Virus record (IMG/VR): IMGVR_UViG_3300042271_000539
Location: 1-64,000 of that record
DNA length: 64,000 bases
From: a virus
Taxonomy: Duplodnaviria > Caudoviricetes
Strand: one strand, 5' to 3'
Shown here: positions 57,509-64,000 of the stretch, one piece after another
Numbering within the stretch: position 1 is the first letter of the stretch
Layout: every line of letters begins with the position of its first letter
Translations under genes and position numbers: made by a program
Notes under the pieces: generated by a model
The model's input: only the letters and a program-made list of their open reading frames with translations
Told to the model about the DNA's origin: nothing
Databases searched by the model: none

Positions 57509-58054
57509 ATGAGTTTAATGAGCGTAAGTAAAGATGGTAAAGGGGATAACTATGAGACCCCTAAGTATGTGGTAGAGATACTTTTACCATATCTAAGAAA
57601 AACTAACATAAGAACTATCTGGTGCCCTTTTGATAAGGCCCACAGTGAATACGTTAAAGTTCTTAAAGAAGCTGGATATATTATTATAAACGGACATATA
57701 GATGAGGGTAAAGATTTTTTTGAATACGAACCAGAACAGTATGACGCCATAATTTCTAATCCACCTTTTTCAAAGAAAAATGAGATTCTAGAAAGATGTA
57801 TAACCTTAGGAAAACCTTTTGCGCTACTTTTATCGGCAACGTGTATACAGAGTGCCTCTTTAATTGAAATTATAGCTAAAGCAAAAGACTTTAATTTCAT
57901 TATGTTTAATAAAAGAATTAGTTACAGTGGAGATAGACCACCATTCCCTAGTTGGTATTTTACCAGTCAAATTTTAGACGGGAACAAGTTCTATCTATAT
58001 GAGAGGGATCCTAAGGAATTATTTAGAGAATGGGAACAAAATAAGAGGGGGTAA
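57509..58054 (+). CDS. Adenine-specific methyltransferase-like protein
   Basis: YETP, IWCPFD, DFF, ISNPPFS motifs. Confidence 0.7.
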   Translation: MSLMSVSKDGKGDNYETPKYVVEILLPYLRKTNIRTIWCPFDKAHSEYVKVLKEAGYIIINGHIDEGKDFFEYEPEQYDAIISNPPFSKKNEILERCITLGKPFALLLSATCIQSASLIEIIAKAKDFNFIMFNKRISYSGDRPPFPSWYFTSQILDGNKFYLYERDPKELFREWEQNKRG

Positions 58055-58058
58055 CGTA

Positions 58059-59267
58059 ATGTTTGAGATTGTGGGTAAACATGGTTTAGCCAAAGTATTT
58101 GCTAAAGATTACGATGAATCTGCTATAAAGCAAATATACGGTATTTTAGCTAGTCCAATATCTAAAGATGCCAATGTGAGAATTATGCCAGATTACCACG
58201 CTGGTGCTGGTTGCGTCATAGGAACTACTATGAAGATCGGGGATAAAGTATGCCCAAATATTGTTGGGGTAGATATTGGTTGTGGCGTGTTAACTATCGA
58301 ATTAGGCAAGGCTAGCATTGACTTAGAGAAGCTAGACAACTTTATTAAAAGAGAGATTCCTAGTGGCTTTTCTGTAGGTAATTCTAGCAGTTTCTATACA
58401 GAGTGCCTGGTGAACGAATTAAGATGTTTTAAAGATATTAAAAATTTAGATAGAATTTATAAGTCTATGGGGTCTCTTGGTGGCGGAAATCATTTTATTG
58501 AGATTGATAAGGACGATGATAATAATAAGTATCTCTTAATCCATACTGGATCTAGAAACTTAGGTCTACAGGTTGCCAAGTACTATCAAGACAAAGCAAC
58601 TAAGAAGATATCAGATAGTCTAGGCTCTGCTAGAGAGACTTTAATTCATGAAAATATTAAAGCCTTAAAAGAGGCAGGTCTACAAGAGTCTATACCGAAC
58701 TACTTGAAAAACGAGGCTTCCTTCAAAAGAAGTTGGAGTAAAGACTTAGACTTTCTGGTGGGCCAAGACATGGAAGACTATCTTCATGATATGTTTATTT
58801 GCCAACAATTTGCTAGGGATAACAGACGAAGTATTGCTGAAAAAATATTAGACTTCTTAAATATAAAAGATTACGAATATTTTGATACAATACACAACTA
58901 CATAGATATAAAAAGCAAAATACTACGTAAAGGTGCTGTATCAGCCAAAAGGCAGGAGAGATTAGTTATACCCATTAATATGCGTGACGGTGCTCTGATT
59001 TGTATAGGTAAAGGTAACCCAGAATGGAACTGCTCAGCACCTCATGGGGCTGGTAGAATCCTATCTCGCAGTGAGGCTAAACGACAACTGACTGAAGATC
59101 AGTTTAAGGAGACCATGGATGGTGTTTATACATCAACAGCAACAATAGATACTATTGATGAATCACCAATGGCATATAAACCGATTGAGAATATTATAGG
59201 TAGTATTGGAGACACGGTAGAGATAGTAAAGACAATAAAACCAATTTATAATTTTAAGGCAAACTAA
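58059..59267 (+). CDS. rtcB: RNA ligase RtcB
   Basis: MPDYHAG, VGVDIGCG, GSLGGGNHF, HTGSR, HNY, RKGA, PHGAGR, DESPMAYK; ATG 58059 after GAGGGG. Confidence 0.95.
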   Translation: MFEIVGKHGLAKVFAKDYDESAIKQIYGILASPISKDANVRIMPDYHAGAGCVIGTTMKIGDKVCPNIVGVDIGCGVLTIELGKASIDLEKLDNFIKREIPSGFSVGNSSSFYTECLVNELRCFKDIKNLDRIYKSMGSLGGGNHFIEIDKDDDNNKYLLIHTGSRNLGLQVAKYYQDKATKKISDSLGSARETLIHENIKALKEAGLQESIPNYLKNEASFKRSWSKDLDFLVGQDMEDYLHDMFICQQFARDNRRSIAEKILDFLNIKDYEYFDTIHNYIDIKSKILRKGAVSAKRQERLVIPINMRDGALICIGKGNPEWNCSAPHGAGRILSRSEAKRQLTEDQFKETMDGVYTSTATIDTIDESPMAYKPIENIIGSIGDTVEIVKTIKPIYNFKAN

Positions 59268-62113: not shown

Positions 62114-62117
62114 GTAT

Positions 62118-62170
62118 TTGACATAGTGTCAAAAGTTATTGCATTTTTAGAAAGTTATACATTATATAAT
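62118..62170 (+). promoter_or_regulatory. TTGACA-TAG-TGTCAA inverted repeat and TTGCAT promoter for the RNA cluster
   Basis: IR 62118-62132; TTGCAT 62139-62144; TATATAAT 62163-62170. Confidence 0.55.
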
Positions 62171-62187
62171 ATTGGTAAGTATAATTA

Positions 62188-62300
62188 TTGCCTTCTACAG
62201 AGGTGCATGGAGTATATATTCATTGTATTTTCTTTTTTCAAAGCCAATCAGTAAATAAATCCTCCTTTCAGCCAGCTCTATGCATCTCTGTAGAGGGCAA
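62188..62300 (+). ncRNA. Long stem-loop RNA (26-bp stem, 61-nt loop with CCTCCTTT)
   Basis: Arms 62188-62213/62275-62300; all four deviations from a perfect IR are G-U compatible on the + strand. Confidence 0.55.
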
Positions 62301-62331
62301 TAGTCATAACCGAAAATAGAAACTGCTATCG

Positions 62332-62393
62332 TAGATGGACGTATACAGCAAAATGAAAGATGAATCTGTTAAATTCCTCCCTTAAACGTCTTG
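62332..62393 (+). ncRNA. Y-RNA-like unit 1 with Asn(GTT) anticodon arm
   Basis: GGACGT/ACGTCT stem, ATACAGCAA, GAAT-CTGTTAA-ATTC. Confidence 0.6.
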
Positions 62394-62420
62394 ACAATAG
62401 TATAATAAAAGTTAATAGTA

Positions 62421-62514
62421 TAGATGGACACATACAGCAACTAAACACATTCCAATGGTAGGAAAATTCTCTTATAAAGAATCTGAGCGGTTCAATTCCG
62501 CAAGTCGTGTCTTG
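62421..62514 (+). ncRNA. Y-RNA-like unit 2 with D, Ile(TAT) anticodon and T arms but no acceptor stem
   Basis: GGACAC/GTGTCT stem, ATACAGCAA, TTCC/GGAA, ATTCT-CTTATAA-AGAAT, GCGG-TTCAATT-CCGC. Confidence 0.65.
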
Positions 62515-62539
62515 TTACTATTAAAATTCGCTTTAAATA

Positions 62540-62668
62540 TAGATGGATGCATACAGCAAACTTTAGCGATGATCTTGTAAATCAGTGGCTATAGGTTCGA
62601 GTCCTATATAATTCACCTAGTGGGTTATTAGCTCAGTTGGTAGAGCACTTAGCGAAAAACGCATCTTG
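62540..62668 (+). ncRNA. Y-RNA-like unit 3 containing circularly permuted tRNA-Thr(TGT)
   Basis: GGATGC/GCATCT stem, ATACAGCAA; order anticodon arm, T arm, acceptor 3' strand, linker, acceptor 5' strand, D arm. Confidence 0.7.
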
Positions 62669-62707
62669 ATATTTAAAAATATAAAAGTTTTATATAATCA
62701 TTGTATA

Positions 62708-62835
62708 CCGTAAGTAACGGTTCGAGTATTACTTATGTGGATGTTGGTCTTCCGAAAATGACGGAGACATAAAACACAGAATATCATTTACTTGGATGTT
62801 AAACCGAGAGTAACGGTTCGAGTATTGCTCATGTG
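62708..62835 (+). repeat. Two 32-nt T-loop-like hairpin repeats (62708-62739, 62804-62835)
   Basis: 28/32 identical, GGTTCGAG loop, compensatory A-T to G-C change. Confidence 0.65.
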
Positions 62836-62852
62836 TATGAAAAGCATTCATT

Positions 62853-63437
62853 ATGAAGGCTTTTCATTTAGGAAGGTATAAAAGATATGAAAGACTTACA
62901 GGCCCTTATAAAGATCACTATATTACTTTTAGTGAGAGACCGATTATGGCTAAATTCCATGGTGAAACATTAGCTAGAAAATATAATAATATGCAGTCAA
63001 TTGTAGCAAATACTAATATCAAAGCAGTATTTGATTTAATCCTAGATGTTGCGGTTAGAAATAATTTACAACAAGAGGATCTACCAACTCATATTTATAT
63101 TTTCTCAGATATGGAATTTGACGAATGCGTTACTACATCTGAGGACCCTTGGATGAGAGTAACGCCAGTAAATAGAACTCTTTTTGAAAAAATCAAAGAT
63201 GAATACAGTAGAAGAGGTTATAGACTACCACAAGTAATCTTCTGGAATCTAGACGCTAGACATAACCAACATCCAGTTAAGCAACACGAAACTGGCGCAG
63301 CTCTGGTTAGTGGTTTCTCTCCAACAGCTTTTAAATTTATCTCTGAAGGTGTAATTTTAACACCTATGGAAGTTATGATGGAGACTTTAAATAGTCCTCG
63401 TTATGCCAAACTTTCTGAGCTTTTTAAGGAAGAGTAA
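62853..63437 (+). pseudogene. 5'-truncated DUF2828-like (TROVE/vWA-related) gene
   Basis: ITFSERP, NTNIKAVFDLIL, IFSDMEFD, IFWNL, VSGFSP motifs of the C-terminal vWA-like part; N-terminal domain and MIDAS DxSxS absent. Confidence 0.65.
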
Positions 63438-63508: not shown

Positions 63509-63595
63509 GGAAAGTAAATTGCACTGGCGTGTAACCTAGTCTTGAAAACTAGTGGTTCCGAGAGGAATGGGGATCGATACCTCTGCTTTCCGCCA
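63509..63595 (+). tRNA. tRNA-Ser(TGA)
   Basis: GGAAAGT/GCTTTCC acceptor, G73, CCA; CTAGT-CTTGAAA-ACTAG; long variable arm. Confidence 0.85.
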
Positions 63596-63713: not shown

Positions 63714-63788
63714 GGATGTGTAGCTCAATGGCAGAGCGATCGGCTCATAACCGATTGGTTGGGGGTTCAAATCCCTCCAGATCCACCA
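63714..63788 (+). tRNA. tRNA with CAT anticodon (Ile2 or elongator Met)
   Basis: Cloverleaf, ATCGG-CTCATAA-CCGAT, TTCAAAT T-loop, ACCA end; one acceptor mismatch. Confidence 0.85.
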
Positions 63789-63791
63789 TAT

Positions 63792-63884
63792 ATTCCTATA
63801 GTGTAATGGAAGCACCCTAAGCTACGTGGCAGAAATGCCTACGTATGTAGAGAAGTATAGGTTCGAGCCCTATTAGGAATTCCA
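63792..63884 (+). tRNA. Atypical tRNA-like RNA: intact acceptor/D/T arms and CCA, anticodon arm replaced by GAAA-capped hairpin
   Basis: ATTCCTA/TAGGAAT-T-CCA; GTGT/GCAC D arm; ATAGG-TTCGAGC-CCTAT; TACGT-GGCA-GAAA-TGCC-T-ACGTA. Confidence 0.6.
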
Positions 63885-64000
63885 CTTTTAAACTTAAGGG
63901 ACCGTGAAAGGTTAATCGAAGTTTCAGTCGACCATCACTAGACTGTTTTCACATTAGGCATGGTGATGCATGCCCCCTACATCTAACTACCGCTCAGTAG

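What the first reader, a model, noticed from the sequence alone, without database searches (positions are those of the whole stretch)
62332..62668. Array of three Y-RNA-like units, each displaying a different tRNA anticodon arm
Seen: three units share TAGATGGA-NNN-ATACAGCAA...NNN-TCTTG, with a perfectly covarying 3-bp stem segment (CGT/ACG, CAC/GTG, TGC/GCA). Cargo differs: unit 1 has an Asn(GTT) anticodon arm only, unit 2 has D + Ile(TAT) anticodon + T arms without acceptor, and unit 3 has a permuted tRNA-Thr(TGT). Known: bacterial YrlA Y RNAs join a Ro60-binding stem to a tRNA-like module, and Ro60/Y-RNA loci often co-occur with rtcB (here at 58059). Inference: a constant protein-binding handle presents variable, non-chargeable tRNA fragments. 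They could be decoys for host anticodon nucleases or substrates for an RNA repair pathway.
Basis: partly seen in the sequence, partly recalled or inferred. Interest (0 to 1): 0.85.

Follow-up and report, generated by a model that had tools for sequence, protein, structure and literature searches.

The report
Handle-tagged tRNA-mimic RNAs, orphaned partner
Three small phage RNAs share a conserved "handle" joined to different pieces of tRNA; the same handle recurs beside Ro60-like ring-protein genes in hundreds of phages, so they look like an uncatalogued kind of Y RNA, though in this phage the protein gene has lost its front two-thirds.

Summary
Three units (62332-62393, 62421-62514, 62540-62668) carry exact copies of TAGATGGA-NNN-ATACAGCAA and NNN'-TCTTG, and the NNN pairs covary perfectly.

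The handle belongs to a widespread family, 5' AAGA-N4-NA-CAGCAA ... N4'-UCUUG 3'. A covariance model built only from other phages finds units 1 and 2 as the top two hits in the 64-kb window. It gives 155 hits in 80 phage loci that encode DUF2828, all on the gene's strand, and none in 100 control loci.

A full-length DUF2828 model matches Ro60/TROVE structures over its whole length. The cargo is made of tRNA parts. About a third of units carry an anticodon-arm mimic, most often Lys UUU, Ser UGA, Asn GUU, Ile or Met.

These RNAs are not canonical YrlA. Unit 3 scores 33 bits against a 69-bit threshold, and the GNCGAA motif is absent. No Rfam family matches, and I found no paper describing them.

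In this phage the DUF2828 gene keeps only its last ~185 codons, so the array has no intact partner gene. Protein binding, expression and the decoy function are untested. Linkage to RtcB is not general.

This scan has already noted the same family on other DNA (198 notes, at least 141 genomes).

The parts
62156..62185 (+). promoter-like site (TATACA-18-TATAAT) ahead of the RNA cluster
   Evidence: 10 of 12 matches. Consensus match only; the number of sites in the region is no higher than in shuffles.
62324..62402 (+). Unit 1 with its outer stem (62324-62329 / 62397-62402). Core 62332-62393: inner stem GGACGU/ACGUCU, AUACAGCAA at 62343-62351, and an anticodon-arm mimic at 62362-62376 with loop CUGUUAA (Asn GUU).
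   Evidence: Model R1, built from other phages, scores 31.1 bits, E 2e-5 over the window and 8e-7 locally.
62391..62419 (+). promoter-like site (TTGACA-17-AATAGT) whose -35 box overlaps the UCUUG of unit 1
   Evidence: Consensus match only. A perfect TATAAT also lies at 62401-62406 (read).
62413..62523 (+). Unit 2 with its outer stem (62413-62420 / 62516-62523). Core 62421-62514: the handle, then a D arm (62450-62464), an anticodon arm (62466-62482, loop CUUAUAA, Ile UAU) and a T arm (62487-62501). The handle stands where the acceptor stem would be.
   Evidence: R1 scores 21.1 bits, E 0.007 and 2.7e-4 locally.
62533..62676 (+). Unit 3 with its outer stem (62533-62540 / 62669-62676). Core 62540-62668: the handle, then an anticodon arm (62569-62585, loop CUUGUAA, Thr UGU), a T arm (62591-62607), an acceptor stem closed by a CUA loop (62608-62628) and a D arm (62631-62646). 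This is a tRNA opened between positions 26 and 27.
   Evidence: Rfam YrlA 32.8 bits, E 8.9e-5, below the gathering score of 69; tRNA model 26.7 bits over 62557-62615. R1 aligns the handle and anticodon arm only, 14.6 bits. Fold.
62853..63437 (+). 5'-truncated DUF2828 gene. Only the C-terminal vWA part (DUF7788) remains, matching residues ~313-340 to the end of full-length homologues of 460-540 aa.
   Evidence: Pfam PF25043 at 2.8e-40 and phrog_850 positions 318-475 of 476. tblastn with ten full-length homologues finds no N-terminal remnant in 82 kb. PF11443 and PF05731 are absent.
63714..64000 (+). start of the phage's tRNA array (26-27 tRNAs plus a tmRNA, extending to 70206 in the full record). 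The three units sit at its head.
   Evidence: ARAGORN on the whole record.
57999..59267 (+). RtcB RNA ligase, 3 kb upstream (context only; not a general family trait)
   Evidence: Pfam PF01139 at 3e-58. RtcB is absent within 6 kb of DUF2828 in 91 other loci.

Best explanation
The three units are small RNAs of a widespread, uncatalogued class that plays the Y-RNA role for a divergent Ro60-like protein, DUF2828.

Each RNA is closed by a helix that varies in sequence but keeps its pairing. On the 5' side the helix is followed by the single-stranded motif NA-CAGCAA, and on the 3' side it ends in UCUUG. This handle is most likely the protein's binding site (inferred, by analogy with the closing stem and 5' motif of Y RNAs).

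The variable middle is built from tRNA parts. Here it is an Asn anticodon arm alone, a tRNA body without an acceptor stem (Ile UAU), and a permuted whole tRNA (Thr UGU). The handle therefore presents tRNA look-alikes, above all anticodon loops, to enzymes that act on tRNA. The most likely targets are host anticodon nucleases that restrict phages; the RNAs would act as decoys or would tether the ring protein to the nuclease (inferred).

In this phage the DUF2828 gene has lost its TROVE-like N-terminal two-thirds, so the array has no intact partner gene. It may be a recent leftover, it may work with a Ro60-like protein supplied in trans, or it may act without protein.

Shown here: the repeats, the covariation, family membership, genomic linkage to DUF2828, the predicted Ro60 fold, and the enrichment of anticodon-like loops. 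Not shown: transcription, processing, binding, and any effect on nucleases.
For: 1. Exact triple repeat with 9 of 9 covarying pairs.

2. The same handle occurs in other phages. A regex finds 54 hits on the DUF2828 strand of 92 loci (1.10 Mb), 2 on the other strand, and 0 in 1.81 Mb of control sequence.

3. Alignment A4 holds 19 units, none from this genome. It is 97% paired, 12 of 13 pairs show compensatory changes, and 0 of 500 shuffles reach the observed values.

4. Model R1 built from A4 ranks units 1 and 2 first and second in the window. It gives 155 hits in 80 DUF2828 loci, all on the + strand, in at least 61 loci and often in arrays of 2-6. It gives 0 hits in 100 control loci, even though each of those contains GATGGANNNATACAGCAA.

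5. The reverse test: of 109 loci found by RNA pattern alone, 38 hold DUF2828 in the fetched stretch, and all 38 have it on the same strand.

6. Units end 25-100 nt upstream of full-length DUF2828 genes.

7. A DUF2828 model (pLDDT 84, pTM 0.82) has Ro60 structures as its 13 best PDB matches over 520-580 columns. These include 9kop and 9l5y (Thermus phage), 2i91, 1yvr and 1yvp (Xenopus) and 2nvo (Deinococcus), with E values from 8e-7 to 1.6e-4.

8. Hairpins with a CUNNUAA loop occur in 23 of 93 unique units, against a shuffle mean of 0.17 and a maximum of 2, and in 0 of the reverse complements. Among the R1 hits, 34 of 113 have a CUNNNAA loop, against a shuffle mean of 0.46.

9. Phage Ro60 with upstream Y-like RNAs is an established arrangement (PMC12135203, PMC4201824). 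The PARIS nuclease AriB cleaves tRNA-Lys(UUU), Thr(UGU) and Asn(GUU) (PMC12409363). Two of those three anticodons are displayed here, and Lys UUU is the commonest in the family.
Against: The presumed partner gene is truncated here, and no other Ro60-like gene lies in the 82 kb. The RNP cannot form from phage parts alone.

The handle differs from every Ro60-binding motif described so far (GGUCCGA, GNCGAA, CGAA), so binding is argued from location only.

The fold energies of units 1 and 3 are no better than shuffles.

About two-thirds of family units carry no recognisable anticodon arm, and Ser UGA is also frequent, so no single nuclease specificity explains the cargo.

A4 was chosen using pairing criteria, so its covariation test is partly circular; the strand and control contrasts are not. 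R1 contains an anticodon arm, so its hits lean towards that cargo.
Confidence: 0.55

Rival explanations
1. The units are substrates or sensors of an RNA-repair pathway, not decoys. Host nucleases cut the displayed loops, the Ro60-like ring holds the ends, and RtcB reseals them. Alternatively, the cut fragments report tRNA damage.
For: RtcB lies 3 kb upstream here and 1.3 kb downstream of DUF2828 in Listeria phage List-36, together with an HD phosphohydrolase and a second RNA ligase. In Salmonella, rsr-yrlBA-rtcBA form one operon that is induced by tRNA fragments (PMC7790460). Aravind's group describes TROVE proteins with a tRNA-like partner as an RNA-repair platform in jumbo phages (PMC7824862).
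Against: RtcB is absent within 6 kb of DUF2828 in 0 of 91 metagenomic loci. Felixounavirus skuden has the units and DUF2828 but no annotated ligase in the 11-kb stretch shown. This phage lacks the ring protein.
Confidence: 0.15
2. The handle is a cis-acting leader or operator through which DUF2828 regulates its own mRNA, or it is a processing signal of the tRNA-cluster transcript. It would not be a trans-acting small RNA.
For: Many units end only 25-100 nt before the DUF2828 start codon, on the same strand. Some minimal units have almost no cargo. The units lie inside tRNA clusters, where RNase P, Z or E processing is expected.
Against: Arrays of up to 5-6 units extend 2-3 kb from the gene (L171, L209, L205). 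In skuden the units lie downstream of the gene, between tRNAs. The cargo is elaborate tRNA mimicry, which an operator does not need. Here all three handles are intact although the gene is truncated.
Confidence: 0.12
3. The units are decaying tRNA genes or fragments at the edge of a phage tRNA array, and the shared flanks are a repeated promoter or recombination scar with no RNA-level role.
For: The cargo is incomplete tRNA. The region also holds other odd tRNA-like pieces (62704-62839, 63509-63591, 63792-63884). Promoter-like hexamers overlap the unit junctions. The neighbouring gene is broken.
Against: The flanks covary as RNA pairs here and across unrelated phages. Hits are strictly strand-specific, 155 of 155. 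The cargo is not a close copy of the phage's own cognate tRNAs. The same three grafting plans recur elsewhere, for example L218 (a permuted tRNA with an Ile UAU arm) and L159.
Confidence: 0.05

Closest known systems
Bacterial and mycobacteriophage YrlA Y RNAs with Ro60/Rsr (Rfam RF02553; Chen et al. 2014, PMC4201824)
   Same: The RNA is encoded next to, and on the same strand as, a gene for a Ro60-fold protein. The 5' and 3' ends form a closing stem, with a conserved motif on the 5' side. Some members carry a tRNA-like module made of a T arm, a closed acceptor-like stem and a D arm (unit 3, L012, L013, L218). More than one RNA per locus is common.
   Different: The 5' motif is NA-CAGCAA after the helix, not GNCGAAN0-1G. 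The long P1-P2-P3 stem of YrlA is absent. Scores stay below the Rfam threshold (30-37 bits against 69). The protein is DUF2828, which Pfam does not place in TROVE. The cargo is modular and includes bare anticodon arms and whole tRNAs, which YrlA lacks. Arrays reach 5-14 units.
Thermus phage phiLo Ro60 with Yrl1 and Yrl2 (PMC12135203; PDB 9KOP, 9L5Y)
   Same: A phage-encoded Ro60-fold protein with two small RNAs just upstream. 9KOP is the best structural match of the DUF2828 model. The authors propose a role in the phage-host conflict.
   Different: The Yrl RNAs carry a CGAA motif in an internal bulge and no tRNA anticodon mimicry. Binding and a PNPase complex were shown there; nothing has been shown for the ACAGCAA class.
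M. smegmatis YrlA, cleaved by RNase P and given CCA (PMC4201824)
   Same: Unit 3 has a 7-bp acceptor-like stem (GGGUUAU/AUAAUUC) followed by A-CC. RNase P cleavage and CCA completion are therefore conceivable.
   Different: Not tested here. Unit 3 also keeps an intact anticodon arm.
Phage tRNAs that defeat tRNA-cleaving defences (T5 tRNA-Lys, Thr and Asn against PARIS AriB; PMC11464382, PMC12409363)
   Same: The setting is the same (a phage tRNA cluster), and anticodon identities overlap (Lys UUU, Thr UGU, Asn GUU).
   Different: Those are complete, chargeable tRNAs that replace the cleaved host tRNAs. Units 1 and 2 here have no acceptor end, and in unit 3 it is closed by a loop, so they could only act as decoys, tethers or sensors.

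Membership tests
YrlA (Rfam RF02553) | reaches the Rfam gathering score (69 bits) | tested here: not met
   Unit 3 scores 32.8 bits (E 8.9e-5). Units 1 and 2 give no hit at E up to 10. Look-alikes in other DUF2828 loci score 37.3 and 30.5 bits.
YrlA (Rfam RF02553) | GNCGAAN0-1G motif near the 5' end (the presumed Ro60 contact; PMC4201824) | tested here: not met
   The 5' parts read UAGAUGGA-NNN-AUACAGCAA. No GNCGAA is present.
YrlA (Rfam RF02553) | tRNA-like domain: T arm, closed acceptor-like stem, D arm | tested here: inconclusive
   Met by unit 3. Unit 2 has D and T arms but no acceptor-like stem. Unit 1 has neither.
YrlA (Rfam RF02553) | encoded within ~4 kb of a Ro60 (TROVE) gene on the same strand | tested here: inconclusive
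   The units lie 185-460 nt upstream of a DUF2828 remnant on the same strand. That gene lacks its TROVE-like part. Full-length DUF2828 is predicted to have the Ro60 fold.
YrlA (Rfam RF02553) | bound by Ro60/Rsr in cells | not testable with these tools
   Needs immunoprecipitation or EMSA.
ACAGCAA-handle RNAs of DUF2828 phages (no published name; defined by this scan) | closing helix with covarying pairs, then NA-CAGCAA on the 5' side and UCUUG at the 3' end | tested here: met
   All three units. There is a local variation: AUGGA replaces AAAGA, the innermost pair is a mismatch, and there is an extra outer stem.
ACAGCAA-handle RNAs of DUF2828 phages (no published name; defined by this scan) | significant hit of a covariance model built from members in other genomes | tested here: met
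   R1 scores unit 1 at 31.1 bits (E 2e-5) and unit 2 at 21.1 bits (E 0.007). It matches unit 3 only in part (14.6 bits) because the long cargo does not fit the model.
ACAGCAA-handle RNAs of DUF2828 phages (no published name; defined by this scan) | same strand as, and close to, a DUF2828 gene, often within a tRNA cluster | tested here: met
   The gene remnant is at 62853-63437 and the tRNA array starts at 63714. In the family, 155 of 155 hits lie on the gene's strand.
ACAGCAA-handle RNAs of DUF2828 phages (no published name; defined by this scan) | cargo built from tRNA parts | tested here: met
   Anticodon, D, T and acceptor elements as listed under parts.
tRNA (RF00005) | cloverleaf with an open acceptor end; found by ARAGORN or at the Rfam threshold (29 bits) | tested here: not met
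   ARAGORN finds nothing at 62332-62668, even with relaxed or intron settings. Rfam tRNA scores 26.7 bits on part of unit 3.
Permuted tRNA genes (the type in the red alga Cyanidioschyzon; from my own knowledge) | 3' half placed before the 5' half, then processed through a circular intermediate into a normal tRNA | not tested
   Unit 3 is permuted, but the break lies between positions 26 and 27 and is occupied by the handle. I saw no bulge-helix-bulge motif. Processing cannot be tested here.

The most novel reading that the evidence does not exclude
The handle RNAs form a modular decoy library. Each unit displays the anticodon loop of a tRNA that host defence nucleases cut. Most are tRNAs that read ANN codons (Lys UUU, Asn GUU, Thr UGU, Ile, Met), which share the U36-A37-A38 loop. 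The Ro60-like ring either captures the nuclease or shields the decoy. This phage, with three perfectly kept handles beside a dead partner gene, would then show that the RNAs can also work without the phage's own protein.
Probability: 0.2. Interest if true: 0.9.

Novelty: new variant of a known kind. Interest (0 to 1): 0.75.

Why it matters
Ro60 and Y RNAs are a conserved RNA-protein particle, and the job of the tRNA-like domain in the bacterial versions is still unknown. This class joins one short handle to interchangeable tRNA parts, often a bare anticodon arm. That makes the question directly testable: what is the displayed tRNA part for?

The RNAs occur in hundreds of phages. DUF2828 is present in 701 GenBank phage records. 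Units are found unannotated in culturable phages of E. coli K-12 (Felixounavirus skuden) and Listeria (List-36), so ordinary bench tests are within reach.

If the RNAs counter tRNA-cleaving defences, they would be an RNA-based anti-defence strategy distinct from carrying spare tRNAs. They also explain unannotated gaps in phage tRNA clusters. The orphan array here offers a natural test of whether the RNAs need the protein.

Tried and rejected
- **Exact-handle scans.** In viral contigs there were 5 hits, all inside coding sequence. In 185,579 prokaryote genomes there were 120 or more single hits, none with the matching 3' half and tRNA-like cargo. In metagenome contigs there were 77 chance hits.
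- **Closest relatives.** Relatives found through the upstream 213-aa ORF (L018, L019, 60% identity) lack the RNA array, RtcB and DUF7788.
- **Sequence search of DUF2828 against the PDB.** It found nothing; only the fold comparison shows Ro60.
- **RtcB linkage as a family trait.** Rejected.
- **Thermodynamic stability as evidence.** Rejected.
- **Loose helix + CAGCA scan of the genome.** Too noisy to use. R1 finds exactly three units in the 82 kb.
- **Promoter-repeat explanation.** The promoter scan is not above shuffles.
- **Copies of the phage's own tRNAs.** The unit cargo is not a close copy of them.

Full report
**Setting.** The window is the first 64 kb of an 82,043-bp IMG/VR provirus record. 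Around the finding lie a split family-A DNA polymerase, a helicase, a methyltransferase fragment and RtcB (57999-59267). An AAA ATPase and two small ORFs follow. Next comes a 740-bp non-coding stretch (62114-62852), and then a 194-codon ORF that matches only the C-terminal vWA part (DUF7788) of DUF2828 proteins. From 63714 to 70206 the record holds 26-27 tRNA genes and a tmRNA. The three units therefore sit at the head of a large phage tRNA cluster.

**Observation.** TAGATGGA-NNN-ATACAGCAA occurs three times without a mismatch and nowhere else, even when 3 mismatches are allowed (expected 0.43). Each copy is followed, 62-129 nt later, by the reverse complement of its NNN and TCTTG.
- Unit 1 carries a 4-bp hairpin with loop CTGTTAA.
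- Unit 2 carries D, anticodon (TAT) and T arms, with the handle in place of the acceptor stem.
- Unit 3 carries, in order, an anticodon arm (TGT), a T arm, an acceptor stem closed by a 3-nt loop, and a D arm.

Rfam supports the reading of unit 3. The YrlA model aligns its T arm, closed stem and D arm at 32.8 bits, and the tRNA model aligns its anticodon and T arms at 26.7 bits. Both scores are below threshold. I also found an outer stem of 6-8 bp around each unit, with a different sequence in each, separated from the inner stem by a small internal loop. Fold energies are not better than shuffles for units 1 and 3.

**The handle is a family signature.** Weak YrlA hits inside the tRNA clusters of two other DUF2828 phage loci (L012, L013) turned out to have the same ends: GAC-NNN-(U)ACAGCAA at the 5' side and NNN'-GUCUUG at the 3' side.

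A simple regex (helix, 1-4 nt, CAGCAA, then complement plus TCTTG) gave 54 hits on the gene strand of 92 DUF2828 loci. It gave 2 on the opposite strand and none in 1.8 Mb of unrelated control sequence. I aligned nineteen short units from other phages (A4). An 8-bp handle and a 5-bp hairpin are 97% paired, 12 of 13 pairs show compensatory changes, and slid partners drop to 32-48% paired. The sequences were picked with pairing criteria, so this test is partly circular.

The covariance model R1 built from A4 contains nothing from this genome. Its results:
- In the window it ranks unit 1 first (31.1 bits, E 2e-5) and unit 2 second (21.1 bits, E 0.007). It aligns the handle and anticodon arm of unit 3.
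- It finds no further unit in the rest of the record.
- In 80 DUF2828 loci it gives 155 hits at E up to 0.01. All are on the gene's strand, they fall in at least 61 loci, and they often form arrays.
- In 100 control loci it gives none, although each control holds an exact GATGGANNNATACAGCAA.

I also searched from the RNA side with an 18-base pattern. Of the 109 loci it found, 38 included a DUF2828 gene in the fetched stretch, always on the same strand. Units typically end 25-100 nt before the start codon of full-length (460-540 aa) DUF2828 genes. The local handle is a variant of the consensus: AUGGA replaces AAAGA, the innermost pair is mismatched, and an extra outer helix is present.

**The protein.** Sequence searches do not link DUF2828 to Ro60 (Pfam gives only a sub-threshold vWA_Ro60 hit). 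An AlphaFold model of a full-length member, built from 32 homologues, is confident (pLDDT 84, pTM 0.82). Its 13 best PDB matches are all Ro60/TROVE structures aligned over the whole length: Thermus phage phiLo, Xenopus, human and Deinococcus (TM up to 0.58; E from 8e-7 to 1.6e-4). Some GenBank mycobacteriophage records already label homologues "Ro-like RNA binding protein".

**Cargo.** Among 93 unique units chosen by handle alone, 23 contain a hairpin of at least 4 bp with a 7-nt loop CUNNUAA. The shuffle mean is 0.17 and the maximum 2, and the reverse complements give 0. Among 113 unique R1 hits, 34 have CUNNNAA loops: UUU 9, UGA 7, GUU 4, GAU 3, CAU 3 and others, and 22 of the 34 end in U36. 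This set is biased because the model includes such an arm.

Other units carry T arms, D-arm-like hairpins, YrlA-like permuted bodies, or whole tRNAs. The three grafting plans seen here recur elsewhere. For example, L218 is a permuted tRNA with an Ile UAU arm, and L159 has D, anticodon-like and T arms inside a handle. The units here are not close copies of the phage's own tRNA-Asn, -Thr or -Ile.

**What it is not.** It is not YrlA in the strict sense. Scores are below threshold, the GNCGAAN0-1G motif that defines the presumed Ro60 contact is absent (PMC4201824), and there is no long three-part stem. No Rfam 15 family matches these units here or in 13 related loci. Full-text searches for DUF2828 found only plant papers. 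Searches on TROVE, phage and Y RNA returned the known Ro60/YrlA work, a jumbo-phage survey that mentions TROVE proteins with a tRNA-like partner, and the Thermus phage Ro60 study.

**The local oddity.** The DUF2828 ORF here begins at the equivalent of residues ~313-340 of full-length proteins. No N-terminal remnant exists anywhere in the 82 kb (tblastn with ten homologues), and PF11443 and TROVE are absent. I see no Shine-Dalgarno sequence before the ORF (read), and a 15-bp hairpin overlaps its start. The nearest database homologue (69% identity) is also short, at 147 aa, and lies on an 84.6-kb contig; I could not fetch it. The three handles are nevertheless identical to one another, while their cargo is unrelated.

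**Mechanism.** By analogy with Ro60 and Y RNAs, the handle is the likely binding site of the ring protein, and the cargo is the effector module. Known Y RNAs have a closing stem plus a 5' motif that binds the ring, and a variable module that tethers partners such as PNPase. Anticodon-arm mimicry points to enzymes that read anticodon loops.

tRNA-cleaving defences are common. PARIS AriB cuts tRNA-Lys(UUU), Thr(UGU) and Asn(GUU) (PMC12409363). These match two of the three anticodons here and the commonest one in the family. A decoy or tether role is therefore my preferred reading, but it is inference.

An RNA-repair role is the main rival. It is weakened because RtcB is not linked in 91 metagenomic loci, although it is linked in Listeria phage List-36. 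A cis-regulatory role fits the minimal units next to the start codon. It does not fit distant arrays, units downstream of the gene in Felixounavirus, or the elaborate cargo.

**Earlier notes.** After my own analysis I looked up this scan's notes. 198 findings in at least 141 genomes describe the same ACAGCAA-handle and DUF2828 pairing, with the same closest-known family. They agree with what I tested here. This window adds a handle variant with an outer stem and an array left without its protein.

**Limits.** E-values from R1 are rough because its calibration was shortened.

Noticed in passing
window 62704-62743 and 62800-62839: Two copies, 85% identical, of a 40-nt element with a T-loop-like core (GUAACGGUUCGAGUAUU). 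They lie between unit 3 and the truncated gene. They have no ACAGCAA handle and R1 does not find them.
   Followed up: partly
window 62180-62308: A long imperfect inverted repeat (33-nt arms, 85% complementary, 63 nt apart) lies right after the promoter-like site and before unit 1. Another first-stage note covers it.
   Followed up: no
window 63509-63591: A tRNA-like gene with loop CUUGAAA (Ser UGA), a long variable arm and an encoded CCA. ARAGORN misses it. It scores 44.1 bits on the tRNA-Sec model, just under the threshold of 47.
   Followed up: no
window 63792-63884: A CCA-ended tRNA with a 17-32-nt insertion in the anticodon arm. ARAGORN calls it tRNA-Arg with an intron; Rfam tRNA scores it 39 bits.
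   Followed up: no
G000 67617-67692 (L331) and other tRNAs of the array: The phage's own tRNA-Thr(UGU) has C33 (loop CCUGUAA), whereas unit 3 displays the canonical CUUGUAA. Several phage tRNAs (Lys, Ala, Ile, Glu) have A in place of T54 (GGAUCG). All 26 tRNAs encode CCA.
   Followed up: no
L163, L170, L177, L153, L217 (about 200 nt upstream of the DUF2828 start): tRNA-like genes whose anticodon-loop position holds an insertion made of a local hairpin followed by UA-ACAGCAA. Here the handle motif is grafted into a tRNA rather than closing the RNA.
   Followed up: partly
L332 6713-6780, 6880-6938, 7275-7343 (Escherichia phage skuden); L333 4662-4718, 4751-4807 (Listeria phage List-36): Handle units lie in unannotated gaps of the tRNA clusters of cultured phages, beside genes annotated 'vWFA protein' or 'RNA-binding protein'.
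   Followed up: partly
window 62560-62568 and 62648-62654: Unit 3 has a direct repeat, CUU(U)AGCG, just before its anticodon arm and just after its D arm. It may be a scar of the permutation event. Unexplained.
   Followed up: no
family units, e.g. L303, L321, L249, L314, L329: A second recurrent cargo type: 5-bp hairpins with 7-nt loops such as UUAGGGA, UUGGGGA or UUUGGGU. They may be D-loop-like or mimics of anticodon loops that have G at position 37.
   Followed up: no
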